Below are positions 3,321 through 62,824 of a stretch of 64,000 nucleotides of DNA, one piece after another. Where the stretch lies: IMG/VR virus record IMGVR_UViG_3300031652_000001; one strand, written 5' to 3'. The stretch is from a virus. The translations under genes and the position numbers were made by a program. The notes beneath the pieces were generated by a model that was given only the letters and a program-made list of their open reading frames with translations, did no database searches and had not been told where the DNA came from. Positions within the stretch are counted from its first letter, which is position 1; every line of letters starts with the position of its first letter.

Positions 3321-3622
3321 TAAAAAAGCTCCTTCCTTACCTGTGTCGGATCACTGATTATTAAAGTGGTCCCAACATGAACATCTTCTTCCATCTGTTT
3401 CATGTTGTTGCGATGAGCAATTACCCAATTCCTTCCATCCTGCTTATAGTATTTCTTGGCTATCGTATCCAATCTATCACCAACCTGAACACGATGTTCC
3501 TTATCTCCAGTACTTGGAGTCAAATCAGGAATATTCGGTCGTGTCCAAAACTCTATCCCGTCTATCATTACCAACTCAGCATGAATTAATCTCGAACTGC
3601 CTCTTTTTATTCTAACTGACAT
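3320..3622 (-). CDS. LysM-domain baseplate/tail protein
   Basis: HRVQVGDRLDTIAKKYY.....W.IAHRN LysM pattern; follows the tape measure gene. Confidence 0.8.
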   Translation of the reverse strand: MSVRIKRGSSRLIHAELVMIDGIEFWTRPNIPDLTPSTGDKEHRVQVGDRLDTIAKKYYKQDGRNWVIAHRNNMKQMEEDVHVGTTLIISDPTQVRKELF

Positions 3623-29197: not shown

Positions 29198-31984
29198 CTA
29201 CGCAGCTTTCATAGTATGTAAAATCTCTCGCAACAAGTTTGCATTCTCACGAAGTTGTCGTCCAATAAGACTGTTCGGATTTTCAATCTCCCTTCGAACC
29301 ATTCCTTCTATCCGTTTTTCATCCTCACGATTACCAGAAAAAAGCTCTCTCTCTGTTATCATGCCAGAACGACCAAAACGATTTCGAATAATCCTACCAC
29401 CAGAAACAGATTCAAAACCCCTGTTGTCTTCTTGCCCTTGCTGATCAACACCAGCCGCCCTCTCTGCTTTCTTTTGTTTGACAATATCTTCGATTTCATC
29501 ATCCGACATTTTGTAAATATGCTTCATCAGCCAATACATACTCACATGACGTTCCATCATCGACGCAAGATCAGCCCTTGCTCGTCTGGCTTCCATCTGA
29601 CCAAGCTCAAAAATTGAACTTGGAACAGTCATTTTTATGTCAAAATCAACAGCAGCTGGATCAATTCTTCTGGCCGCAAGATTCACTTTTGCAACCTTCT
29701 TCATTCCATTTCTGATCTCTCTCTGAACTCTTAGAATGGTCCTTGCAAAACGAACATCCTCTTGGGATAACGTTGCCCGACTCGGCATATTCTCATCGTA
29801 TCCCATATAGGCACGTGGGATCTTCAGGGCAGCATATAGCTTGTAAAGAAAATACTGCACGTCATCCACCTGTTGGTACGCTGGCCCCATCAGAGATTCT
29901 ACCCTAGTCGTCTCTCTTCCTTCTCTAGTTGCGAAAAAGAAATCCTGATCCATCGACATCGGATTTGCACGAAGGTCGAGTTTGCCAGTATTGTGCGTAA
30001 ATACCCCAGCCGTGAGTAAGAAATTATGATATTTATCAACATCCAAGTTGTAGACGTCCTCATACCCATCAACAGTTACGCTCACAACCTTATGGTTGTT
30101 CATCGCCCTGGTCGGCTCATCTCCATAAGTTCTATTCCGCCACCTGGCCTGCCCCGTCTTCTCACACTTATAAGCCTTGAATCCGCTGTACCCCTTTTTC
30201 TTCAAAAACGCCCTCAGCGTCCCCGCTGACACCTTTACCTTTGCCGTGGTTGGACACTGGCAATAAACAGCAGAAAACAACTCGTCAACATTAAGCCTAT
30301 CAGCCAGCTCTTCCGATGTAACCAATGGATCTCTAACGACATGCTCTTCAATAATGTCAAGCATCATCGCGTGCAAAGGGAGCGCCTTCTCCATACGAGC
30401 CTTCATCGACGCTTGCCCCGCCTTTACCGCCGCCCCATGAACGTCCGCACCAGATCTCATCCTCCATTCTGAAAGTCTACGAGCAATGCTCTCTCGGAAA
30501 TCACTATCCGACGTCAACCTCTTTACAAAAGCACACCTTCCATTGATTGCATTCTCAGGATGACGCTTCATATGCTCTGATGCAGTAAGGATCTCAAGGT
30601 TTTCTGGCCGATTATCTCTCTTATCACCATTTTTATGATGAACATGACATCCATCGATTTGGCCAATGCCAGCCCCTTCGGCCACCTCCCTATGGACATA
30701 CCTTCTCTCTCCGGTCATAGGATCACGGTACGTGTCATAACCCTGCGTCCCATCCGTGCCCTTTGACACATACAATGGCATCAAAGAATCTCCATGCCTA
30801 AGCTCAGACGCTGCCTTGTATGTCCCATCACGCATCAAAAACGGATGGATATAGTTGCATCTAACTACAGCCCCACTATCCAAAACAACTCTATAAATCT
30901 TCTGCTTCTTGTCCGTCAGTCGTGGATTACTCGCAAGTCCAGGAACAACCCGACCAGACGCCAAATCGTAAGAATAGACCCAGAACTTTTCATCTTTAAA
31001 GTCCCTGGCCAACTCTGACATGCTCCTGTCCGTACCATCTAACAACTTTACACAAGTCTCCCCTGTTAAACATTTGGGATTCACAAATTTCCTTTTTTTC
31101 AATTGCTGCATGGATTCGCGCAAAATTTTCTGTGCTTCATACTTCGGTACTTTCCCGACATCGATATAAAACGCATATCTACTTGGACTTCGAGTCAACT
31201 TGTAAACAAGAACAGCATCCTCTAACAACATAAGCCTTTTCCAGACCCATCTCGCTGGATCAATGACAGACCACCCATAAAGAGATTCACGATACTTTGC
31301 CGTCAATCTCATATGGACTACTCTCCAATCCTCAAAGGCTGCAACATCTTTAGTGTCATTCGTTCCTGAACCACCACTGATTCTGAACTTTTCAAATTGC
31401 TCTGGAGTAAAATCCAAATTATCTGAAAATGTTTGCATAAAACCAAAAAGATCGCCCTTTTTGTTTTCTATCCGGCGCATTGTCTTTGCAGGTAAAAAAC
31501 TCAAACCAACAACACCACCATCACCAACAATAATCTCCTCGTAATCATTACCCATCTTGCAAAGACCACGAGATATTGGCCAAATATTATTGTCGATATC
31601 TATTCGCTTGTAATACATATCCATCAATTCTTCTTTGATGGAATCATCATTACATTCAACCCATAGAACTTTCCCGTCAGAACTATCCTCCTGAGTAGAA
31701 TCGTCAGCATAAATATCCAGCGCACTAGAAATATCAGAATATTCATCCATTGATTCATAATCATAGAACCTTTGGAGCATGCCTCTATCGAGAGAAAGCA
31801 TGCCATGGAGATCCCCACTCTGAAGAATATCCATAGAAGCTCCAAGACCTGAAATACTGGCATTGGCAGCCAACTCCTTGGTCGATATTGCCAAATCCTG
31901 ACCCTGCTTATCGCGCCTGAAAACATCCCTTATAAAGGAGATGCCCTTTGAATCAATCTTGCCCATACACTGCCCCTGACTCAA
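29198..31984 (-). CDS. Portal protein (T4 gp20-like) with intein
   Basis: Y..MD....I.SALDIYADD, L.LLEDA.LVY.L.R.P.R..FYIDVG, LY.ALKIP, L..ED.RFAR. Confidence 0.92.
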   Translation of the reverse strand: MSQGQCMGKIDSKGISFIRDVFRRDKQGQDLAISTKELAANASISGLGASMDILQSGDLHGMLSLDRGMLQRFYDYESMDEYSDISSALDIYADDSTQEDSSDGKVLWVECNDDSIKEELMDMYYKRIDIDNNIWPISRGLCKMGNDYEEIIVGDGGVVGLSFLPAKTMRRIENKKGDLFGFMQTFSDNLDFTPEQFEKFRISGGSGTNDTKDVAAFEDWRVVHMRLTAKYRESLYGWSVIDPARWVWKRLMLLEDAVLVYKLTRSPSRYAFYIDVGKVPKYEAQKILRESMQQLKKRKFVNPKCLTGETCVKLLDGTDRSMSELARDFKDEKFWVYSYDLASGRVVPGLASNPRLTDKKQKIYRVVLDSGAVVRCNYIHPFLMRDGTYKAASELRHGDSLMPLYVSKGTDGTQGYDTYRDPMTGERRYVHREVAEGAGIGQIDGCHVHHKNGDKRDNRPENLEILTASEHMKRHPENAINGRCAFVKRLTSDSDFRESIARRLSEWRMRSGADVHGAAVKAGQASMKARMEKALPLHAMMLDIIEEHVVRDPLVTSEELADRLNVDELFSAVYCQCPTTAKVKVSAGTLRAFLKKKGYSGFKAYKCEKTGQARWRNRTYGDEPTRAMNNHKVVSVTVDGYEDVYNLDVDKYHNFLLTAGVFTHNTGKLDLRANPMSMDQDFFFATREGRETTRVESLMGPAYQQVDDVQYFLYKLYAALKIPRAYMGYDENMPSRATLSQEDVRFARTILRVQREIRNGMKKVAKVNLAARRIDPAAVDFDIKMTVPSSIFELGQMEARRARADLASMMERHVSMYWLMKHIYKMSDDEIEDIVKQKKAERAAGVDQQGQEDNRGFESVSGGRIIRNRFGRSGMITERELFSGNREDEKRIEGMVRREIENPNSLIGRQLRENANLLREILHTMKAA
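29990..31072 (-). mobile_element. Intein (361 aa) with HNH endonuclease in the portal protein
   Basis: NPK|CLTGET...HNFLLTAGVFTHN|TGK; internal HHKNGDKRDNRPENL. Confidence 0.9.
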
Positions 31985-33683: not shown

Positions 33684-36600
33684 CTAACCAGTAAAGAAAA
33701 CTGGTCCGTCATAGTCGTTCTTTATCTCTACTGGCGCCCTGTCGCCTTTTTTCTCCATTGTTTGCCGAATCCATTCTGAGTCCTTATCTTCATGATCCAC
33801 ATATTCACTTATACCCTCAGCCATCGGTGCCCGGAAGACGTGCTTTGTTGTCAACGCATATACCGCACCACAAACCGCATCTGCCGTATCTTTTGAATTA
33901 TGGACAAACACCCCTGAAGATAAAGCAAAATTAGAGTACTCATCAACTTCAAGATCATATACCGGAACAGCATCTTTCAATAAAACTGGTATAACATATC
34001 TTACTTTATGATTCTCCCCAGCATAATTATCCTGGAAATCCAACCACGATTTAGCCCCTAAATCCTTGAGCACCCGCATTACAACATTTCTTCCACACCC
34101 TAACGCTCTTGCTGCTGCATTTGCATTTGGTTGCCCTGCCACCGATCTTAGTTTGTCCTCTGTTACATCATGCCTAAACCACGGATTCTTCCTTTGTGAA
34201 AGTTTCCAATCTTCCTTCGTTTTTTGAGCATGGATACTCTTCATGTGCTCACTATGGAGACGTCTTCCTCGTTCACTCTCATTGAACATCTTTAACCCAT
34301 TACTCAAACTAGCTCTGTACTGCCTGTCCTCTTTGTGCCTCTTAACCGTATGCTTTCTAGAATGTTTAGAACGCTTAATGATTTCCAAATTCCATGGCCT
34401 GTTGTCTGTCTTTATTCCATTTTTATGATGGACAATCTCTGTTTCACTTGGAAACTCGCCATTAATAGCTCCATGCACCAAATGATGCGTTAACGTCTTT
34501 TTTCCGTTCTTGTCTGATACTGACTCGTACCCGCCATTGACGGGCCAATTTCGATTAATCGGCATCAGCCTATCAATCCCAGGAGTAAGATCCTTTGCCA
34601 TTTTATATGACCCATCCCACATCCTCCATAAATGTTCTGGTGTACATCTTTCTACAGCACCAGAATCAAGAACTACGTCTACCAACTCTCTTGTATACCC
34701 GGTCAGTCTTCCCCTTGCTTTACCAGGTACAATCGATCCATCATCCCTACTCGCATAAACCCATTCCTCTACACCATCCAACTCAGAAATCTGAGCACAC
34801 GTCCCATCAAGCAAAGGGATTCGCGTACTTTCAACAAAACACCCATTGGGTGGATGGTCAACTTTTCCTTTATTATCATCCCTAACAAGTTGCTCCATCT
34901 CCTGAATTAAAATCTGATAATCATAAACACTTATCCTGCCTTCATAAACAGCAGTTTTAAAACAGGTATATGGGTCAATTGTCTTGTCGACAGAGATTAT
35001 TTCACCATCAATCCCTTTTGCTGATAACTGCTGGAGCATGTCACGACTCTGGAATGAATCCATAGAAGCAAAAGAAATCGTATATCCATGTTTCTGAAAA
35101 GCATAAATTAACCCACGAATTTCACCGAAATCAATTTCGCCAATCGTTGGGGCAATAATTCTAAGAACCAAATCCACTTCAATCAACGGCACTTCTTCTT
35201 TAAAAGGCTCCCCCTCCTCACTTCTTCTTTCCATCGTTATATAGTCAACAACATGAGCAATGCATATACCCGCCGGATCAGAAAGACCAAGACTCAAATC
35301 CAAATGAACAAACCTTGGGGCATCAGGATGTCGTCTTGGTCTCAATTCCTCAATATATTCACCCGGACCTATCCTCCTACGATGCCTTTGGGATAACCTG
35401 TCCCACTTAATCTCAAGGGGTTCACTGGTACACCATTCATCGACATATACTGGTGAAGCAAGCGTCGTATCCGTAATCTCATAAATTCTTGATCTTAACT
35501 GGAAGAACGGAGCAATACTCACAGTTACAACACCAGCAATATCCCTAATAGAATCCTCGATATTGCGATCAAAATCAGATTTAAAGTTCATCGGGACTCG
35601 AATAAACCTACACCCCTGAGCCTCAATACGCCTCCTACCTGATGACCCCATTCCCCGATACTCTTTTTTCGAAAGTACCTTATGAGGGATACGTTCATTC
35701 CCTACTCGAACCCAAAATCTATCTGGAGAAAAACGGTCTCTCGGAGCAACTTCATATATTGCATAATCACGACAGAAAACCATCGGATTCGTAGCCGCAG
35801 CACCAATCCTCCTGTTTGTGTAAGACTGCTTATGTCTGGCCGATGAAGTCATAAATAATTTACCCGGTAATACGCCAGCCCGGTCAAACCGGGACTTCAT
35901 CCTTCGGGTAATCGACTCATGAAGCTTTTCAACAAAAGATTTTTCACCTGGTTTATCCTGAACGTCGTTGATAATGGAACCATCTATGAAATCCGTTTCA
36001 TCAAGCACTCCACCAAATACATCTCTACCAAGGGCATTCGCTGACTTTGCAGATATCGGAATAACCTTGATGTTTTTCTTTGGGTACTCAACAATTGATG
36101 TTCCTATCCGTATTCCAAGATCTTTAAAAAAAGGTGAAACCTCTATTTTTCGCTTGAATCCACCAAAAGTGACCTCTCTGGCCAACTGTTGATCTCGATT
36201 AAAACAGACAAGAACAATCTCAGACCCTGGCATTAAACCAAATGTAGACTGTGGATCCTTGAGCATGCAAAGCTCATAAAACATGTAGGCAAGGCCCATA
36301 TCAGCAAAAGTAGTTTTACCAGAACCAATCGACCCAGTAAGAATGGCCTCATTGTATGGACGGGAATTTAGCTCAACCAGGTCATCCATCCATATCTCAT
36401 AGAAATACTCTCCGACATGACCAAAATACCTTTTTGAAAGACAAAACTCTCTTACAGGAATAATAGGCTCTTCATAGTGGAGATAAAGATATTTCCTGAA
36501 CATCATCGCCATCAATGCCATTTCATCGCTGGACTCGTAACCATCTTCCCCATCTTCAGCCATCTGTCTGATCTCATCTAAGATTTGATCAAGCCAAAAC

Positions 36601-36704
36601 CGCTCTTCTTTGTTGAGATTATTTATCCTTTTCAACAAATCAGACTGAAGTTCTTCCTCTGTTACAATGGACCTACGTCTTCCAGTTGGGGTCTCGATTA
36701 TCAT
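33684..36704 (-). CDS. terL: Terminase large subunit with intein
   Basis: Walker A GSIGSGKT, Walker B VLDE, HLDL nuclease motif, DHP..G/SKD..DA. Confidence 0.92.
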   Translation of the reverse strand: MIIETPTGRRRSIVTEEELQSDLLKRINNLNKEERFWLDQILDEIRQMAEDGEDGYESSDEMALMAMMFRKYLYLHYEEPIIPVREFCLSKRYFGHVGEYFYEIWMDDLVELNSRPYNEAILTGSIGSGKTTFADMGLAYMFYELCMLKDPQSTFGLMPGSEIVLVCFNRDQQLAREVTFGGFKRKIEVSPFFKDLGIRIGTSIVEYPKKNIKVIPISAKSANALGRDVFGGVLDETDFIDGSIINDVQDKPGEKSFVEKLHESITRRMKSRFDRAGVLPGKLFMTSSARHKQSYTNRRIGAAATNPMVFCRDYAIYEVAPRDRFSPDRFWVRVGNERIPHKVLSKKEYRGMGSSGRRRIEAQGCRFIRVPMNFKSDFDRNIEDSIRDIAGVVTVSIAPFFQLRSRIYEITDTTLASPVYVDEWCTSEPLEIKWDRLSQRHRRRIGPGEYIEELRPRRHPDAPRFVHLDLSLGLSDPAGICIAHVVDYITMERRSEEGEPFKEEVPLIEVDLVLRIIAPTIGEIDFGEIRGLIYAFQKHGYTISFASMDSFQSRDMLQQLSAKGIDGEIISVDKTIDPYTCFKTAVYEGRISVYDYQILIQEMEQLVRDDNKGKVDHPPNGCFVESTRIPLLDGTCAQISELDGVEEWVYASRDDGSIVPGKARGRLTGYTRELVDVVLDSGAVERCTPEHLWRMWDGSYKMAKDLTPGIDRLMPINRNWPVNGGYESVSDKNGKKTLTHHLVHGAINGEFPSETEIVHHKNGIKTDNRPWNLEIIKRSKHSRKHTVKRHKEDRQYRASLSNGLKMFNESERGRRLHSEHMKSIHAQKTKEDWKLSQRKNPWFRHDVTEDKLRSVAGQPNANAAARALGCGRNVVMRVLKDLGAKSWLDFQDNYAGENHKVRYVIPVLLKDAVPVYDLEVDEYSNFALSSGVFVHNSKDTADAVCGAVYALTTKHVFRAPMAEGISEYVDHEDKDSEWIRQTMEKKGDRAPVEIKNDYDGPVFFTG
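33897..34841 (-). mobile_element. Intein (315 aa) with HNH endonuclease in TerL
   Basis: PNG|CFVEST...NFALSSGVFVHN|SKD; internal HHKNGIKTDNRPWNL. Confidence 0.9.
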
Positions 36705-41417: not shown

Positions 41418-41567
41418 CTTTGATCTCCTTTGCATCAAAATACACAATACAGTAACATAAAAACACGAACTTTGACTTCATTAATCAATGAAATATGTTC
41501 TTACAGTAAATACTTTTACAAGAAAATGAAACCCCGAGAAAGGCGAGGTTGTAGATGCATTATCCCT

Positions 41568-42575
41568 TTAGGATATACACACCGAAAATAGAGGAACCTT
41601 GCTATCCTTGTCAGTGATTACTTGTCCACCAAGCATAGGAACCTTTTCCGTCTTTGGCAAAACCACTGTCCTAAGCCTCATACCGCTTTCCTCATCCTCA
41701 CAAGGGGACAATCTCAAAGGATGTGCCCTGAGTGCCGACAATAGCCCCTCAGTAGCTGTATAGAGCTTTGCCTTACTCTCCAATAAGACGTCATGTATCG
41801 CCTTGAGAGTTCGTTCTCTTGGCTGCAATGGCTCCCTTGACGAATCCGGAAACATGGGTAGCCTATCCTTGTTCTGCTGATAGCAGGCCCTTGCCAACGA
41901 CCCGTAACAGACACGAATCAGTGGGTACCAGATAGACCGCCAATAGGCCCTTGTTGGCGAAAGCTCAACTCCCGCCACTTTACCTTCAAGCAAGACAACT
42001 GCCCCAACCTGATTATCAAGAAGCTCAAACTCCGCAACGAACTCATCCATTTGCTTCTTGAATGTATTCACAAAAACAGCAAGCTGCTGATGATTTGAAA
42101 GACCGTGTCGAGAATTGAACTCACCCAGCTCACCCCAGATCAGATTGTATCCTTGCTCCTTACGCTTTGCCAAAGCAATGCTTCTGAGTTCTGCCGGTAA
42201 AATCAACATCTCTGTTGCACTCTTGATATATCCACCCTGGCTAGACTGAATACATCTTGCCGTCCTGATTATGGACTCAGAACCACCCTTCATAATCTTG
42301 CCGCTACCAACAGCGTGATCCTGAGCTGCCTGCTCAACAACCCAACCGGCCCCAGGAGGAACAAAGTTCGTCCGACCAGATCTCTCTCGGATATGAACCG
42401 TTCCATAATTGGAGGTCCTTACCTCAAAATCATCAGCCGTACCAAAATCGCTCTCATCAAAACGATCATTATCGGAAACCAATGGTATCACCCCCATATT
42501 TCCGACATACTGAGCCTCACCAGAGGAAACCCCGTCCAGGATGTCCCCCATTGTCAATGTCCGTCTCCTATTCAT
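41568..42575 (-). CDS. ARPP-like (DUF6569-related) protein
   Basis: NYG.V, QDHA, A.CIQ..QGG, IW, F...FE...Q.GA...G...G.E..P...YW...W..L...CY; coupled (ATGA) to the vWA gene. Confidence 0.6.
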   Translation of the reverse strand: MNRRRTLTMGDILDGVSSGEAQYVGNMGVIPLVSDNDRFDESDFGTADDFEVRTSNYGTVHIRERSGRTNFVPPGAGWVVEQAAQDHAVGSGKIMKGGSESIIRTARCIQSSQGGYIKSATEMLILPAELRSIALAKRKEQGYNLIWGELGEFNSRHGLSNHQQLAVFVNTFKKQMDEFVAEFELLDNQVGAVVLLEGKVAGVELSPTRAYWRSIWYPLIRVCYGSLARACYQQNKDRLPMFPDSSREPLQPRERTLKAIHDVLLESKAKLYTATEGLLSALRAHPLRLSPCEDEESGMRLRTVVLPKTEKVPMLGGQVITDKDSKVPLFSVCIS

Positions 42576-44209
42576 GACTCACCTCCTAGTAAGCCTGAAA
42601 AGCCCTCACCTCCTGCCGTAAGCGCTATCCGAACCAGATTCTCAATACCCTGTCTCGGGTCACTCTCGATGAGACCTCGAACCATGGTAGTGCCGATCAA
42701 TTCAGGAGACTTGACCGGCATTGTTACAACCTTGTCGATACCATCACAGATCGAACGTACAGCTCCAGTCTCAGCCGCAAAAACAGGATTGAAATGAATA
42801 ATTGGTGTGTCATTCCCATATTCCCTCGCAAGCCTGAGAACATCACCTGTCCGTCCAGCTGGAGCATTCTCATATCCATCACTGATAATGAAAATTGCTT
42901 CAGGCTCATCCATCATCAAAAAGAGAAGTCGCTCAGCAAGATCAGTAGAACCCTTCGGTCTCGTCAATGTTGCTTTGTCTCCCTCATATGTCCCACCACA
43001 CACCAACACAGATGCGGACTCGGCAGATGCAACCAAAGCATCTCTTAACGATAACGCAACAGCCATCGGCCTGAGAGGTTGCTCCCGGCTTCCTTCCATA
43101 GACTTCGAAGCGTCCAATAGGATGCCAATCCTATTATATGAAAAAGGCAACGTCGTTGCCGTTTTCTTCGCTTTCCTTGTAAGGGCGTCCTGGACAATAC
43201 CGGTCATGCCGTTCTCAAAAGCATGAATGTACAGCTCTACCGAACTGTAATCATCAACCCTCATTTCGACATCAACACCCGCTTCCTTTGCCCTCTTCTG
43301 AACAACTCTCCTTTCATGAGTTGTCATCGTTTTCGACTTCGCCTTTATCCTGATAATATCACCAGGCTTCGTATTTTGATGATATGTGCTTCTGATGCCC
43401 TCCAACACTTCAGTCGGAAGAATCGATCCCGCCTTGAGATCTTTCTTAGAACAAACAAAAGCATTCAACATTTTCATCTCTTTATAAAAACCATCACGTT
43501 TTCCAAAAAGAAAAGCCAAACACTGACAAACTCGAACTCTTTTGTTGTGAACATCTGTGTCGCCGATAATATATCGGAAAACGTGATCCCGCAGAGCACC
43601 TCTATCTATCCTGCTCATCTTGCTGAACTTCGGATATTGCTTTACAGCCTCACCAATAAAAGAAGCCAATTTCTGGCCCCACGCATGAACCAGTGCTCCC
43701 TTCACCTTGTCACGATACTTCACAACCCAAAGCTCAAACCTCGGACTATTCAATATCGTCTTGAGTATCAACTTCCTGGTACGAGCATTGTTTGAACGCT
43801 TGATACCAAAATGACCCCCACGACCCCGAAGCGCGTCGAACATCTTTAAAAGCCGCTGAGGTGGCATTTCCCGAACGAATTTCTCCAAAATATGACGTTC
43901 TATTTTGGGATCCAAAAACACATCGGCGCCCCGTGGGTTTGCCAATAATGTCGATATACCCAGTTGTCGAGAATGGTCTGTTGTACCCGGCAAAAGAAGC
44001 AACGTCTCATACAGATCTCGACACCTCCGAAATAACTCTGCATGAGCATGGATTTCCGAACTTACCTGCTGTTCCCTCGTATTGTAATGCGTAGAACGAC
44101 CGTACGATGTAGTACAGACATCCAAGAACGACAAGACATGAGGAGCCAGATCTTCCGGCCTCAGGTGCTCAACCCGAAAAATGTCCTCCAATAGTGCAAG
44201 GTTCCCCAT
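42572..44209 (-). CDS. Ro60/TROVE-like helical domain + vWA protein
   Basis: Basic helical N-terminal ~350 aa, then MIDAS LLDASKSM...T...IISDGYEN; directly downstream of Y-RNA-like elements. Confidence 0.65.
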   Translation of the reverse strand: MGNLALLEDIFRVEHLRPEDLAPHVLSFLDVCTTSYGRSTHYNTREQQVSSEIHAHAELFRRCRDLYETLLLLPGTTDHSRQLGISTLLANPRGADVFLDPKIERHILEKFVREMPPQRLLKMFDALRGRGGHFGIKRSNNARTRKLILKTILNSPRFELWVVKYRDKVKGALVHAWGQKLASFIGEAVKQYPKFSKMSRIDRGALRDHVFRYIIGDTDVHNKRVRVCQCLAFLFGKRDGFYKEMKMLNAFVCSKKDLKAGSILPTEVLEGIRSTYHQNTKPGDIIRIKAKSKTMTTHERRVVQKRAKEAGVDVEMRVDDYSSVELYIHAFENGMTGIVQDALTRKAKKTATTLPFSYNRIGILLDASKSMEGSREQPLRPMAVALSLRDALVASAESASVLVCGGTYEGDKATLTRPKGSTDLAERLLFLMMDEPEAIFIISDGYENAPAGRTGDVLRLAREYGNDTPIIHFNPVFAAETGAVRSICDGIDKVVTMPVKSPELIGTTMVRGLIESDPRQGIENLVRIALTAGGEGFSGLLGGES

Positions 44210-44250
44210 CGCACACCTCCTGATTTTTAATAAAGTCCCCGGACAAAAAA

Positions 44251-44318
44251 AGACTGAGAAAATTCGTCAAATGTCTTTAGTAGTCCTCCACTGTAACATC
44301 TGATTCAGTCCTCAATCT
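44251..44318 (-). ncRNA. Y-RNA-like hairpin RNA 1 (no tRNA module)
   Basis: AGATTGAG/CTCAGTCT terminal stem, GAGGACT motif, inner stem TCAGATG/CATTTGA. Confidence 0.65.
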
Positions 44319-44333
44319 GTGTATTATATAAAA

Positions 44334-44459
44334 GACCGAGATTTTTTAACAAACGGAGTTGGATAGAAATACGGGAATTGAACCCGTTACCGTTGGTTTA
44401 GAAGACCAATGCTCTAACCAGATGAGCTGATTTCTGAACCGTCTATTGAGTCCTCGGTC
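44334..44459 (-). ncRNA. Y-RNA-like RNA 2 with embedded tRNA-Arg(TCT)-like cloverleaf (44365-44435)
   Basis: GACCGAG/CTCGGTC terminal stem, GAGGACT motif, inner stem AATAGACGG/CCGTTTGTT, then D, anticodon and T arms. Confidence 0.75.
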
Positions 44460-44476
44460 ATTTTTTCAAAGAAAAT

Positions 44477-44603
44477 AGGCGAGATTATTTAAGAAACAGT
44501 GTGTGTAAAGAAAAACCGGATTCGAACCAGTAACTCTCAGCTCCCAATGCTGAAGCTCTACCAATGAGCTTTTTTCCCTGAACTGTCTCAACAGTCCTCG
44601 CCT
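44477..44603 (-). ncRNA. Y-RNA-like RNA 3 with embedded tRNA-Pro(TGG)-like cloverleaf (44508-44578)
   Basis: AGGCGAG/CTCGCCT terminal stem, GAGGACT motif, inner stem GAGACAGT/ACTGTTTC, then D, anticodon and T arms. Confidence 0.75.
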
Positions 44604-44613
44604 TGCAAGAATT

Positions 44614-44643
44614 AATCTAACCCAATTTTCTGGAAGGTGTCAA
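44614..44643 (-). promoter_or_regulatory. Sigma70-like promoter of the Y-RNA-like/vWA/ARPP operon
   Basis: TTGACA-N18-TAGATT ending about 10 nt before RNA 3. Confidence 0.6.
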
Positions 44644-44663
44644 CAGTAAAAACGAAATTGAAT

Positions 44664-45026
44664 TCACTTTATCCTGTTTACTGAGATATACGCCTGAAAT
44701 GCATTAACAATTTCTTTTCTCGATACTTTGGCCCCCCATGTTTCGAGTTTCATTTTCAGATCAGACAATGACTTTGGGATCTCCATATGATTCGCAAGAA
44801 CAGCCTTCATAAACGCCTCTACTCCTGTCTGTATGTTCTGCCTTGTCTTGGTATCCAGTGTTCCTCCAAGCCCTCTGAAGGCCCTTATGAAACTCCTTGC
44901 CTGGTCCATGGTGACATCCTTCATCTTTGGCCTCGTTGTGCCCTCTGAAAGGTACGAGCGACGCCTCAATGTAGAGACACCAACACCATAATTCCTGTTT
45001 ATTATTTTTGTACGAGACGTCCGCAT
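44664..45026 (-). CDS. Basic hypothetical protein with LRRRSYLSE leader
   Basis: AGGAGG RBS; shared leader motif. Confidence 0.65.
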   Translation of the reverse strand: MRTSRTKIINRNYGVGVSTLRRRSYLSEGTTRPKMKDVTMDQARSFIRAFRGLGGTLDTKTRQNIQTGVEAFMKAVLANHMEIPKSLSDLKMKLETWGAKVSRKEIVNAFQAYISVNRIK

Positions 45027-48462: not shown

Positions 48463-48538
48463 CAGGGGCATATGGAGTCGAACCCCCAACAACAGATACT
48501 ACTGGAAGCCTGCGCTCTACCATTTAAGCTATACCCCT
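48463..48538 (-). pseudogene. Degenerate tRNA-Trp (CCA)
   Basis: AGGGGTA acceptor and D arm intact; enlarged anticodon loop; T-stem GGGGG/CCATA mispaired. Confidence 0.65.
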
Positions 48539-61863: not shown

Positions 61864-61878
61864 AATCACCACCTCTTG

Positions 61879-61952
61879 TCGGGACGAGAGGATTTGAACC
61901 TCCGACATCCGGTTCCCAAAACCGGCGCGCTACCAAACTGCGCTACGTCCCG
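61879..61952 (-). tRNA. tRNA-Pro (TGG)
   Basis: Cloverleaf, C1-G72, loop TTTGGGA. Confidence 0.92.
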
Positions 61953-62656: not shown

Positions 62657-62824
62657 TGGGCCAAGCAGGATTCGAACCTGCACAGATGCTCTGATGTTGG
62701 TATTCCCTGGTACGCGACTGTCCACCGATAGAATACCCATTTTCCAGTCAGCTTCAACACGCATCGATTCAGCATCTTATCCAACACGTCACCAGTTAGC
62801 GTCTACCTTTTCCGCCATTGGCCC
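62657..62824 (-). ncRNA. 168-nt tRNA-like RNA with a large structured insert
   Basis: GGGCCAA/TTGGCCC-A acceptor, Leu-like D arm, perfect T arm; ~115 nt replace the anticodon and V arms. Confidence 0.75.

What the first reader, a model, noticed from the sequence alone, without database searches (positions are those of the whole stretch)
41568..44643. Phage operon: promoter, three Y-RNA-like RNAs, Ro60-like vWA protein and ARPP-like partner
Seen: a TTGACA-N18-TAGATT promoter precedes three tandem elements (44477-44603, 44334-44459, 44251-44318). They differ in sequence but share one architecture: a 7-8 bp terminal stem with compensatory changes (AGGCGAG/CTCGCCT, GACCGAG/CTCGGTC, AGATTGAG/CTCAGTCT), a conserved 5' GAGGACT opposite an A/T-rich ...TCTC internal loop, a second stem, then a variable cargo. 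About 40 nt downstream starts a 545-aa basic helical + vWA (DASKS MIDAS) protein, translationally coupled to an ARPP-like protein. Established: bacterial Ro60 (TROVE+vWA) genes sit beside Y RNAs, which bind Ro through a terminal stem. Inference: this is a divergent Ro-like ribonucleoprotein with its own RNA family and a dedicated effector, possibly for RNA repair, surveillance or counter-defence.
Basis: partly seen in the sequence, partly recalled or inferred. Interest (0 to 1): 0.92.

Follow-up and report, generated by a model that had tools for sequence, protein, structure and literature searches.

The report
Diverged Ro60 particle with tRNA-mimic RNAs
A salt-marsh phage carries an operon for three small RNAs sharing one stem "handle" (two hold a whole tRNA cloverleaf), a ring protein with the fold of the RNA-surveillance protein Ro60, and an enzyme-like ARPP partner; the same module recurs in many phages and bacteria, mostly inside tRNA gene arrays, and I found no paper describing it.

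Summary

- **RNAs.** Three tandem minus-strand elements share a two-helix handle. A covariance model built only from relatives finds exactly these three in the 64-kb window. The "variable cargo" of RNAs 1 and 2 is a complete tRNA cloverleaf (Pro-UGG, Arg-UCU).
- **Ring protein.** The 545-aa protein matches no Pfam, PDB-sequence, NCBIfam, PHROGs or PADLOC entry. Its model superposes on Ro60 over the ring and the vWA domain (Z 19.8, 413 residues).
- **Partner.** The coupled 335-aa protein is ARPP-1, with no solved fold relative. A complex model places its invariant acidic motif on the Ro-like MIDAS face (0.64 against 0.01 for the best control).
- **Distribution.** The trio recurs in 23 viral and about 37 bacterial loci (Myxococcota, Planctomycetota and others), mostly inside tRNA arrays. 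The cargo may be an intact tRNA, a permuted tRNA mimic or a hairpin.
- **Paralogy.** In Minicystis rosea a canonical Ro60 gene lies 3.5 kb away, so this family is a paralogous branch.

No RNA data exist, and binding and ARPP chemistry are inferred. The scan has already reported this system on other DNA (notes from at least 27 genomes). I rate it a new variant of the Ro60/Y-RNA kind.

The parts
44614..44643 (-). Sigma-70-type promoter TTGACA-N18-TAGATT, about 10 nt upstream of RNA1
   Evidence: 10 of 12 matches. A TTGACA promoter stands in the same place in L001-L004.
44477..44603 (-). Y-like RNA 1: two-helix handle carrying a complete, non-permuted tRNA cloverleaf (Pro-UGG, 44505-44579). Positions 8-9 read AA instead of UA. 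No encoded CCA.
   Evidence: R1 hit E 8.6e-4; this element was not used to build the model.
44334..44459 (-). Y-like RNA 2: the same handle carrying a tRNA cloverleaf (Arg-UCU, 44360-44436). Positions 8-9 read CA.
   Evidence: R1 hit E 7.5e-4; this element was not used to build the model.
44251..44318 (-). Y-like RNA 3: the handle with a short hairpin cargo, followed by a run of seven T. It lies 41 nt upstream of the Ro-like start codon.
   Evidence: R1 hit 37.9 bits, E 7e-8. A short element occupies the gene-proximal position in 10 of 11 related viral loci.
42572..44209 (-). 545-aa Ro60-like protein: helical ring (about residues 20-350) plus a C-terminal vWA domain with a complete MIDAS (D366, S368, S370, T422, D444, all invariant in the family)
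   Evidence: There is no sequence-level match to TROVE or vWA_Ro60.
41568..42575 (-). 335-aa ARPP-1 protein, translationally coupled through an ATGA overlap. Invariant residues include C108, Q113, Q85, D86 and E184.
   Evidence: Found immediately downstream of the Ro-like gene in 23 of 23 viral and 37 of 43 bacterial loci. Predicted to dock on the MIDAS face.
41530..41550 (-). Terminator-like hairpin with a T-rich tail, 18 nt after the ARPP stop codon: the likely end of the operon

Best explanation
The operon encodes a three-part ribonucleoprotein module that is a deep, sequence-unrecognisable branch of the Ro60/Y-RNA machines.

Proposed mechanism:
- The 545-aa protein forms a Ro60-type ring with a vWA domain.
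- The ring binds the conserved handle of the three RNAs. The handle is a 7-8 bp terminal stem closed by a G-C pair, an asymmetric internal loop with (A)ACU on the 5' side, a second 8-bp stem, and an unpaired UWCAG at its top.
- The handle displays a cargo: an intact tRNA cloverleaf, a permuted tRNA mimic or a plain hairpin.
- The vWA MIDAS site holds the ARPP-1 protein through ARPP's invariant acidic motif around E184. ARPP is therefore the dedicated effector of the particle.

The module lies inside tRNA gene arrays in both phages and bacteria. The most likely job is therefore surveillance, protection or repair of the tRNA pool. The tRNA-like cargo would act as a substrate mimic, tether or bait, and ARPP would act on an RNA ribose or 3' end.

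What is shown:
- the RNA family with covariation;
- the Ro60 fold;
- strict three-part synteny;
- the tRNA-array context.

What is inferred, with my probabilities:
- the RNAs bind the protein (about 0.8);
- ARPP docks on the MIDAS (about 0.65);
- the function concerns tRNA (about 0.6);
- ARPP heals or trims RNA ends (about 0.25).
For: RNA family:
- R1 finds only the three elements in the window.
- R1 finds 25 matches in 12 viral loci and the window, more in the most distant loci, and 40 in bacterial loci. All 40 bacterial hits are on the gene's strand and upstream of the gene.
- Covariation on 25 sequences: 85.6% of cells paired, and 14 of 15 pairs show double changes. The covariation score is 0.749, against 0.29 for shuffles and 0.12-0.24 for slid controls. 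RNAalifold on its own finds stem 2, with 8 of 8 compensated pairs.
- Run genome-wide, the best R1 hit in two 10-Mb planctomycete genomes lies next to the Ro-like gene.

Protein:
- The top 12 Foldseek hits are all Ro60.
- VIA gives Z 19.8, rmsd 4.6 and 413 aligned residues, model 23-517 against chain 28-537 of 2i91_B. Matches to vWA alone reach at most Z 12.
- The MIDAS residues are invariant.

ARPP:
- It is present in 23 of 23 viral loci and 37 of 43 bacterial loci. Of the other six, three are cut by a contig end and three are distant relatives.
- Complex model: ipSAE 0.64 against 0.01 for the best control. That mark was reached by 58 of 80 solved complexes and 2 of 110 mismatched pairs. The runs agree in at least 83% of their contacts, and the partner's pLDDT is at least 82.
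- The interface joins Ro-like 368-370, 419-422 and 446-453 with ARPP 181-187 and 245-271.

Context:
- 15 of 24 bacterial loci examined hold 7 to 29 tRNA genes within about 6.5 kb.
- The window operon closes a phage tRNA array.
- Permuted and hairpin cargoes sit on the same handle.
- Nine near-identical planctomycete elements differ mainly in the anticodon arm: CUU, UUU, UAG, AUU.
Against: - There is no sequence-level link to Ro60. Pfam TROVE and vWA_Ro60 give no hit at E<=0.1. Sequence and profile searches of the PDB find no Ro60. hhalign against a canonical Ro60 aligns only the MIDAS stretch, at probability 3%. Homology therefore rests on a predicted structure.
- The handle lacks the Ro-binding motif of known Y RNAs (GGUCCGA, or GNCGAAN0-1G). 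Rfam Y_RNA and YrlA do not match even at E<=10.
- Nothing here shows that the RNAs are made as discrete species or that they bind the protein.
- ARPP has no solved structural relative and no tested activity (PMC9503650).
- The caged tRNAs score as good tRNAs, so they might simply be tRNA precursors.
Confidence: 0.7

Rival explanations
1. tRNA cage or pre-tRNA chaperone. RNAs 1 and 2 are genuine phage tRNA precursors. Their leader-trailer duplex (the handle) is bound by the Ro-like protein, which stores, protects or times the release of decoding tRNAs. RNase P and 3' processing then free the tRNA. The hairpin-only RNA would be a competitor or regulator.
For: The cargoes are complete cloverleaves with good Rfam tRNA scores (54.7 and 57.1 bits). 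RNA2 encodes CCA after its discriminator base. Arg-UCU occurs only in caged form within this window. Canonical Ro60 is known to bind misfolded RNA precursors (PMC4201824).
Against: - Permuted cargoes with a closed acceptor hairpin cannot give a decoding tRNA, yet they sit on the same handle (L011, L012, L013, L025, L026, L032).
- Cargoes called Leu and Ser lack the long variable arm.
- Near-identical bodies carry Lys, Leu or Asn anticodons.
- Both window cargoes lack U8.
- A second, canonical Pro-UGG tRNA exists at 61878-61952.
Confidence: 0.12
2. Anticodon-nuclease decoy or sensor. The displayed tRNA-like domains are baits for host or rival tRNA-cleaving toxins and defence nucleases. The particle absorbs or detects the attack, and ARPP deals with the damaged end or signals it. 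This is a specific version of the main reading with a counter-defence emphasis.
For: Variation among otherwise about 95% identical orthologous elements is concentrated in the anticodon arm. Anticodons at orthologous positions differ between related phages: ACA, ACG, CAU and UUA in L001-L004. The module travels with tRNA arrays in large phages.
Against: The module is also chromosomal and highly conserved in free-living Planctomycetota and Myxococcota, which suggests housekeeping rather than an arms race. Neither protein matches any PADLOC family. The hairpin-only members have no anticodon arm.
Confidence: 0.2
3. Cis-regulatory leader. The elements, above all the gene-proximal hairpin followed by a T run, are attenuators or autoregulatory operators in the 5' leader of the Ro-like/ARPP mRNA. 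On this reading they are not trans-acting RNP subunits.
For: Each element ends in a T-rich run, and RNA3 is a stem followed by T7 just 41 nt before the start codon. A short element is gene-proximal in 10 of 11 related viral loci. All hits are upstream on the same strand.
Against: Arrays of up to four copies lie 1.3-2 kb upstream in distant loci. tRNA-like cargo is not needed for attenuation. Canonical Ro60 genes also have their Y RNAs alongside on the same strand (PMC4201824). The two roles are not exclusive.
Confidence: 0.1
4. Chance or convergence. The protein is an unrelated alpha-solenoid plus vWA domain that only resembles Ro60, and the stems are ordinary tRNA-flanking or terminator structures with no link to it.
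For: No sequence homology is detectable. Helical repeat proteins reach middling Z-scores easily (note).
Against: - Z 19.8 stands well above the vWA-only rows, and the match is co-linear over both domains. Every one of the top full-length hits is a Ro60.
- The RNA family covaries and tracks the gene across protein identities from 90% down to 31%, in phages and in at least five bacterial phyla.
- That arrangement is the one known for Ro60 and its Y RNAs.
Confidence: 0.04

Closest known systems
Bacterial Ro60 (Rsr) with YrlA/YrlB Y RNAs (Salmonella rsr-yrlBA-rtcBA, M. smegmatis, mycobacteriophages; Chen et al. 2014, PMC4201824)
   Same: A ring plus vWA protein, with one to several small RNA genes beside it on the same strand. 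The RNAs have a terminal stem formed by their 5' and 3' ends plus a tRNA-like module. The systems are linked to tRNA biology, and phages carry them too.
   Different: - No TROVE or vWA_Ro60 sequence signature, and no GNCGAA motif.
- The handle has its own conserved (A)ACU and UWCAG motifs.
- The cargo can be a whole non-permuted tRNA with an anticodon arm.
- The obligatory partner is ARPP-1, not RtcB or PNPase.
- The module lies inside tRNA arrays.
Deinococcus radiodurans Rsr-Yrn1-PNPase (RYPER)
   Same: The idea of a Ro ring joined to an effector enzyme, with a tRNA-like Y RNA as part of the particle.
   Different: In RYPER the RNA tethers the effector. Here the effector is predicted to be held protein-to-protein at the MIDAS site, and it is a protein of unknown chemistry rather than an exoribonuclease.
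Thermus phage phiLo Ro60 with Yrl1/Yrl2 (PDB 9KOP, 9L5Y; PMC12135203)
   Same: A phage-encoded Ro60-fold protein with Y-like RNAs just upstream. It is a structural match to this model (Z 16.1 and 15.7).
   Different: phiLo Ro60 is recognisable as Ro60 by sequence. Its RNAs carry the CGAA motif, it recruits host PNPase, and it has no ARPP partner and no tRNA cargo.
ARPP proteins of ARG-centred (ADP-ribosylglycohydrolase) conflict systems (Iyer et al. 2022, PMC9503650)
   Same: The same Pfam family (ARPP-1, ARPP-2), with the conserved Cys and Gln (C108 and Q113 here). vWA proteins are also noted in those neighbourhoods.
   Different: That paper lists ARPP with ARG, rhodanese-phosphatase, HIRAN, WYL and deacetylase partners. 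It does not list a Ro60-like ring or RNA genes. No ARG or phosphatase gene lies next to this operon.

Membership tests
Ro60 / TROVE family | Sequence signature: Pfam TROVE (PF05731) and Ro60 vWA (PF25045) | tested here: not met
   No Pfam hit at E<=0.1. A canonical Minicystis Ro60 hits both families (1.6e-64 and 4.9e-43). hhalign of the family profile against it aligns only the MIDAS stretch, at probability 3%.
Ro60 / TROVE family | Fold: helical-repeat ring closed by a C-terminal vWA domain | tested here: met
   In the model (pLDDT 85.7, pTM 0.81), the top 12 Foldseek hits are all Ro60. VIA gives Z 19.8, rmsd 4.6 and 413 aligned residues across both domains. This is a predicted structure, not a solved one.
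Ro60 / TROVE family | MIDAS motif (DxSxS...T...D) in the vWA domain | tested here: met
   D366, S368, S370, T422 and D444 are invariant in 39 family members.
Ro60 / TROVE family | Neighbouring Y RNA genes on the same strand, with a terminal 5'/3' stem | tested here: met
Ro60 / TROVE family | Physical binding of the RNAs and of misfolded RNA ends by the ring | not testable with these tools
   Needs a pull-down, EMSA or an experimental structure.
Y RNA / YrlA (Rfam Y_RNA, YrlA) | Match to the curated covariance models, and the conserved Ro-binding motif GGUCCGA or GNCGAAN0-1G | tested here: not met
   No Y_RNA or YrlA match at E<=10 on 44150-44700, and none at gathering score in six related loci. 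The conserved handle motifs here are (A)ACU and UWCAG.
Y RNA / YrlA (Rfam Y_RNA, YrlA) | tRNA-like module (T arm, D arm, acceptor-like stem) attached to the protein-binding stem | tested here: met
   Full cloverleaves in the window. Permuted mimics with a closed acceptor hairpin in L011, L012, L013, L025, L026 and L032.
ARPP-1 (PF20208) | Pfam match above the gathering score, and the conserved Cys and Gln | tested here: met
   78.9 bits against a cut-off of 27. C108 and Q113 are invariant in 36 members.
tRNA (decoding) | Cloverleaf with D, anticodon and T arms | tested here: met
   Rfam tRNA 54.7 and 57.1 bits; ARAGORN calls Pro-UGG and Arg-UCU.
tRNA (decoding) | Free, processed acceptor end, and an identity consistent with the anticodon | tested here: inconclusive
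   The acceptor ends continue into an 8-12 bp helix, and U8 is replaced by A or C. Orthologous bodies change anticodon: Lys, Leu, Asn. Processing and charging cannot be tested here.

The most novel reading that the evidence does not exclude
A widespread Ro60 branch that I did not find described, shared by free-living bacteria (Planctomycetota, Myxococcota and others) and large phages, guards the tRNA pool. Its RNAs present exchangeable tRNA baits whose anticodon arms turn over quickly. The vWA MIDAS site, whose ligand in Ro60 has remained unknown, holds a new enzyme (ARPP) that acts on the damaged or modified RNA ribose or 3' end. Phages carry the module with their tRNA arrays to resist tRNA-targeting defences.
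Probability: 0.3. Interest if true: 0.9.

Novelty: new variant of a known kind. Interest (0 to 1): 0.8.

Why it matters
- **A blind spot in surveys.** Ro60/Y-RNA particles are studied from bacteria to humans, but bacterial surveys started from TROVE-annotated genes (PMC4201824). This family is invisible to that annotation. It has hundreds of members: 553 clusters at 50% identity.
- **A candidate MIDAS ligand.** The role of the Ro60 MIDAS site is stated to be unclear (PMC12135203). Here there is a concrete, testable candidate ligand, ARPP.
- **A context for ARPP.** ARPP has no known activity. This system gives it an RNA context.
- **tRNA arrays.** The module links phage and bacterial tRNA arrays to a dedicated RNP. 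That bears on how phages protect translation against tRNA-targeting defences.
- **A possible tool.** The modular handle-plus-cargo design may be useful for displaying RNAs.

Tried and rejected
**Searches that found nothing**
- Rfam at E<=10 over the RNA region gave only tRNA plus chance rows.
- Pfam, NCBIfam, PHROGs and PADLOC gave nothing for the 545-aa protein.
- PDB sequence searches with the single protein and with the family profile found no Ro60. BLASTP and hhalign against a canonical Ro60 showed nothing beyond the MIDAS stretch.
- ARPP fold searches: no Foldseek match at E<=0.001, and the best VIA-wide Z was 4.2. No fold assignment is made.
- Literature searches for ARPP, TROVE, DUF6569, tRNA array plus vWA, and Ro60 plus tRNA array found no paper describing this module.
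- Pfam on ten neighbouring ORFs showed only an HNH/HTH protein and no RNA-repair genes.
- No canonical Ro60 was found in the window by tblastn.

**Expression and genome data that were not available**
- No RNA holder is listed among the public runs. The DNA occurs in salt-marsh and wetland metagenomes. I did not lay reads.
- The window's own genome is not held, and the nearest record, G001, is a 23-kb fragment with no matches.

**Ideas dropped**
- Pairing between GRACU and UWCAG: UUACAG and AUACAG variants break it, with no covariation.
- The 168-nt tRNA-like RNA at 62657-62824 as another family member: no R1 hit and no motif.
- The second-best genome-wide R1 hit in G003: it has no Ro-like or ARPP gene nearby and looks like a simple repeat, so it is probably chance.

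**Alignment caveat**
- The MAFFT alignment A2 puts stem 1 one column out of register in the GGGAACU-type rows. Stem 1 counts on A2 (70% paired) therefore understate the pairing.


Full report
**1. Observation**

On the minus strand a TTGACA-N18-TAGATT promoter (44643-44614) precedes three tandem elements at 44477-44603, 44334-44459 and 44251-44318.

Each element folds into a 7-8 bp terminal stem, an internal loop, a second stem and an apical cargo. Folding energies lie 2.4 to 3.8 sd below shuffled controls. The terminal stems differ by compensatory changes, and all three share GAGGACU on the 5' side.

Each holds a complete, non-permuted tRNA cloverleaf:

| RNA | Anticodon | Coordinates | Rfam tRNA score |
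|---|---|---|---|
| RNA1 | Pro-UGG | 44505-44579 | 54.7 bits |
| RNA2 | Arg-UCU | 44360-44436 | 57.1 bits |

In both, the acceptor ends continue into the second stem.

Forty-one nucleotides after RNA3, behind an AGGAGG site, starts a 545-aa ORF (42572-44209). Its stop overlaps, in an ATGA, the start of a 335-aa ORF (41568-42575). A terminator-like hairpin follows at 41550-41530.

The window belongs to a phage. It encodes a portal, a head protease and a major head protein, 17 tRNAs and a tmRNA.

**2. The RNAs are one family, and it tracks the gene**

Upstream of homologues of the 545-aa gene in 23 viral contigs, the same architecture was visible by eye.

I aligned 14 short, hairpin-type elements, 13 of them from other loci plus RNA3.
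- RNAalifold on its own found stem 2, with 8 of 8 pairs compensated.
- With both stems specified, 14 of 15 pairs show double changes, and no shuffle out of 500 reaches the observed covariation.

The covariance model R1 built from this alignment gave these results:
- **The window.** Run without filters over both strands, it returns exactly the three elements (E 7e-8, 7.5e-4, 8.6e-4). The next hit has E 0.36. RNAs 1 and 2 had no part in the model.
- **Viral loci.** It finds 25 matches in 12 viral loci and the window, including tRNA-bearing ones.
- **Distant loci.** It finds further copies, in arrays of up to four, in loci with only 31-38% protein identity.
- **Bacterial loci.** It finds 40 matches, every one on the gene's strand and upstream of it.
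- **Covariation on the model-based alignment of 25 sequences.** 85.6% of cells are paired. The covariation score is 0.749, against 0.29 for shuffles and 0.12-0.24 for slid controls. That alignment is fitted to the structure, so it leans towards it.
- **Whole genomes.** In two 10-Mb planctomycete genomes the best hit is the one beside the gene. A weaker orphan hit looks like chance.

The conserved handle has five features:
- a first stem closed by an invariant G-C pair;
- (A)ACU on the 5' side, facing a short pyrimidine-rich stretch on the 3' side;
- an 8-bp second stem;
- an unpaired U-W-C-A-G at the base of the cargo;
- a T-rich run after each element.

**3. Cargo classes**

The same handle carries three kinds of cargo:
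- **Whole tRNAs joined through their acceptor ends.** These occur in the window and in L001-L005, L011, L018 and others.
- **Permuted tRNA mimics.** The order is anticodon arm, T arm, acceptor hairpin closed by a loop, then D arm. These occur in L011, L012, L013 and in bacterial L025, L026 and L032.
- **Plain hairpins.** A short element sits next to the gene in 10 of 11 related viral loci.

Several features argue that the cargo acts as a tRNA-shaped module rather than as a decoding tRNA:
- The permuted forms cannot yield a decoding tRNA.
- Cargoes called Leu and Ser lack the long variable arm.
- The two window cargoes have A or C in place of U8.
- Nine planctomycete elements from several genera are about 95% identical, yet they carry CUU, UUU, UAG or AUU anticodons. 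Their differences are concentrated in the anticodon arm.

This is an inference. Processing and charging were not tested.

**4. The 545-aa protein has the Ro60 fold**

It has no match in Pfam, NCBIfam, PHROGs, PADLOC or PDB sequences. Its family is nevertheless large: 287 clusters at 90% identity and 553 at 50%.

An AlphaFold model built from 39 relatives has pLDDT 85.7 and pTM 0.81. It consists of about 20 helices followed by an alpha/beta domain.
- Foldseek's top 12 PDB hits are all Ro60 (human, Xenopus, Deinococcus Rsr and Thermus phage phiLo). All are near full length, at probability 1.00.
- VIA-align gives Z 19.8, rmsd 4.6 and 413 aligned residues, model 23-517 against chain 28-537 of 2i91_B. 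Matches to vWA alone stop at Z 12.
- The MIDAS residues D366, S368, S370, T422 and D444 are invariant.

Sequence methods do not see the relationship. hhalign against a canonical Ro60 aligns only the MIDAS stretch, at the equivalent position and at probability 3%.

In Minicystis rosea a canonical Ro60 gene, which hits both TROVE and vWA_Ro60 in Pfam, lies 3.5 kb upstream of the Ro-like/ARPP pair in the same tRNA array. The new family is therefore a paralogous branch and not a replacement.

**5. ARPP partner**

The 335-aa protein matches Pfam ARPP-1 (E 5e-22) and ARPP-2.

ARPP was defined by Iyer et al. 2022 (PMC9503650). They describe it as a protein of unknown activity with a conserved Cys and Gln, found in ADP-ribosylglycohydrolase-centred systems, and they propose that it acts on ribose moieties. 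Here C108, Q113, Q85, D86 and E184 are invariant.

Its model is confident (pLDDT 90.9) but has no solved structural relative.

An ARPP gene follows the Ro-like gene in 23 of 23 viral loci and in 37 of 43 bacterial loci. Of the other six, three are cut by a contig end and three are distant relatives.

A complex prediction supports binding, but it does not show it:
- The score is 0.64, against 0.01 for the best control. That mark was reached by 58 of 80 solved complexes and by 2 of 110 mismatched pairs. These counts hold only roughly, because my own alignments were used.
- The runs agree in at least 83% of their contacts, and the partner's pLDDT is at least 82.
- The interface joins the MIDAS face (368-370, 419-422, 446-453) with ARPP 181-187 and helix 245-271.
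- An invariant Glu (E184) lying against a MIDAS site is the classical way vWA domains hold a ligand. That last point is established knowledge applied by inference.

**6. Distribution and context**

Chromosomal copies occur in these groups:
- Myxococcota (Minicystis, Haliangium, Enhygromyxa);
- Planctomycetota (Stieleria, Rhodopirellula, Novipirellula, Aureliella);
- Actinomycetota (Yinghuangia);
- Bacteroidota, Gemmatimonadota and a gammaproteobacterium.

Fifteen of the 24 bacterial loci examined hold 7 to 29 tRNA genes within about 6.5 kb. The viral copies lie in contigs of 40-435 kb, mostly beside tRNA clusters. The window operon closes such a cluster.

**7. How it most likely works**

By analogy with Ro60, the ring binds the handle and the handle displays a tRNA-shaped module. 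ARPP is held at the MIDAS as the effector. In RYPER, by contrast, the RNA tethers PNPase.

Because the module is embedded in tRNA arrays, I think it serves tRNA surveillance, protection or repair. The specific versions (decoy for anticodon nucleases, cage for real tRNAs, autoregulatory leader) are listed as rivals with probabilities.

Shown here:
- the RNA family and its covariation;
- the fold;
- the synteny;
- the context.

Not shown:
- expression of discrete RNAs;
- RNA-protein binding;
- the ARPP-MIDAS contact;
- any enzymatic activity.

**8. Comparison and novelty**

The closest known systems are bacterial Rsr with YrlA/YrlB (PMC4201824), Deinococcus RYPER, and phage phiLo Ro60 with Yrl1/2 (PMC12135203). 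This module works like them in outline. It fails their sequence-level membership tests (TROVE, vWA_Ro60, the Y_RNA and YrlA models, the CGAA-type motif). It adds an obligatory ARPP partner and intact-tRNA cargo.

I found no paper that describes it.

This scan has already reported the same system on other DNA, with notes from at least 27 genomes and several follow-ups reaching the same reading. I read those notes only after my own main results. One of them prompted the anticodon test.

My rating is a new variant of a known kind, with high interest.

Noticed in passing
window 62657-62824 (-): A 168-nt tRNA-like RNA (Rfam tRNA 32.5 bits) with acceptor, D and T arms and a long insert where the anticodon arm should be. 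It lies beside the phage tmRNA (62988-63376). It is not a member of the handle family (no R1 hit).
   Followed up: partly
L067:3333-3454 and 3462-3585 (Minicystis rosea, just downstream of the canonical Ro60 gene L067:1378-3075): Two tRNA-like RNAs of about 123 nt with long inserts (Rfam tRNA 51.3 and 47.5 bits) follow the canonical TROVE Ro60 gene. They may be its own Y RNAs, with a tRNA frame and an extended anticodon-side stem. They do not match R1.
   Followed up: partly
L067 and L025 (Minicystis rosea CP016211, about 8.255-8.266 Mb): A canonical Ro60 gene and the diverged Ro-like/ARPP pair lie 3.5 kb apart on the same strand, inside one array of about 40 tRNA genes.
   Followed up: partly
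window 44323-44352 (-): A second promoter-like site, TTGTTA-N18-TATAAT (10 of 12), overlaps the 3' part of RNA2 and ends 5 nt before RNA3. RNA3 and the two genes may therefore have their own start.
   Followed up: no
L004:2733-2808 and L014:2257-2328: Caged tRNA cargoes with stop-codon-reading anticodons, UUA (ochre) and UCA (opal). L009, L014 and L027 have cargoes with odd anticodon loops that ARAGORN cannot name.
   Followed up: no
window 29198-31984 (-) and 33684-36704 (-): The portal protein (phrog_213) and a 1006-aa ORF each carry an inserted HNH endonuclease segment, consistent with inteins in packaging genes.
   Followed up: no
window 48463-48538 (-): A weak Rfam tRNA match (31.4 bits) that ARAGORN does not call, lying between tRNA-Leu and tRNA-Ser in the phage array.
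   Followed up: no
L019:2740-2900 and L022:2760-2900: Just upstream of the distant Ro-like genes lies a tRNA-like RNA with an acceptor stem, a T arm and an encoded ACCA end. In L019 it encloses a GGGACU...UUUAG handle-like segment. This may be a third way of wiring the handle into a tRNA frame.
   Followed up: no
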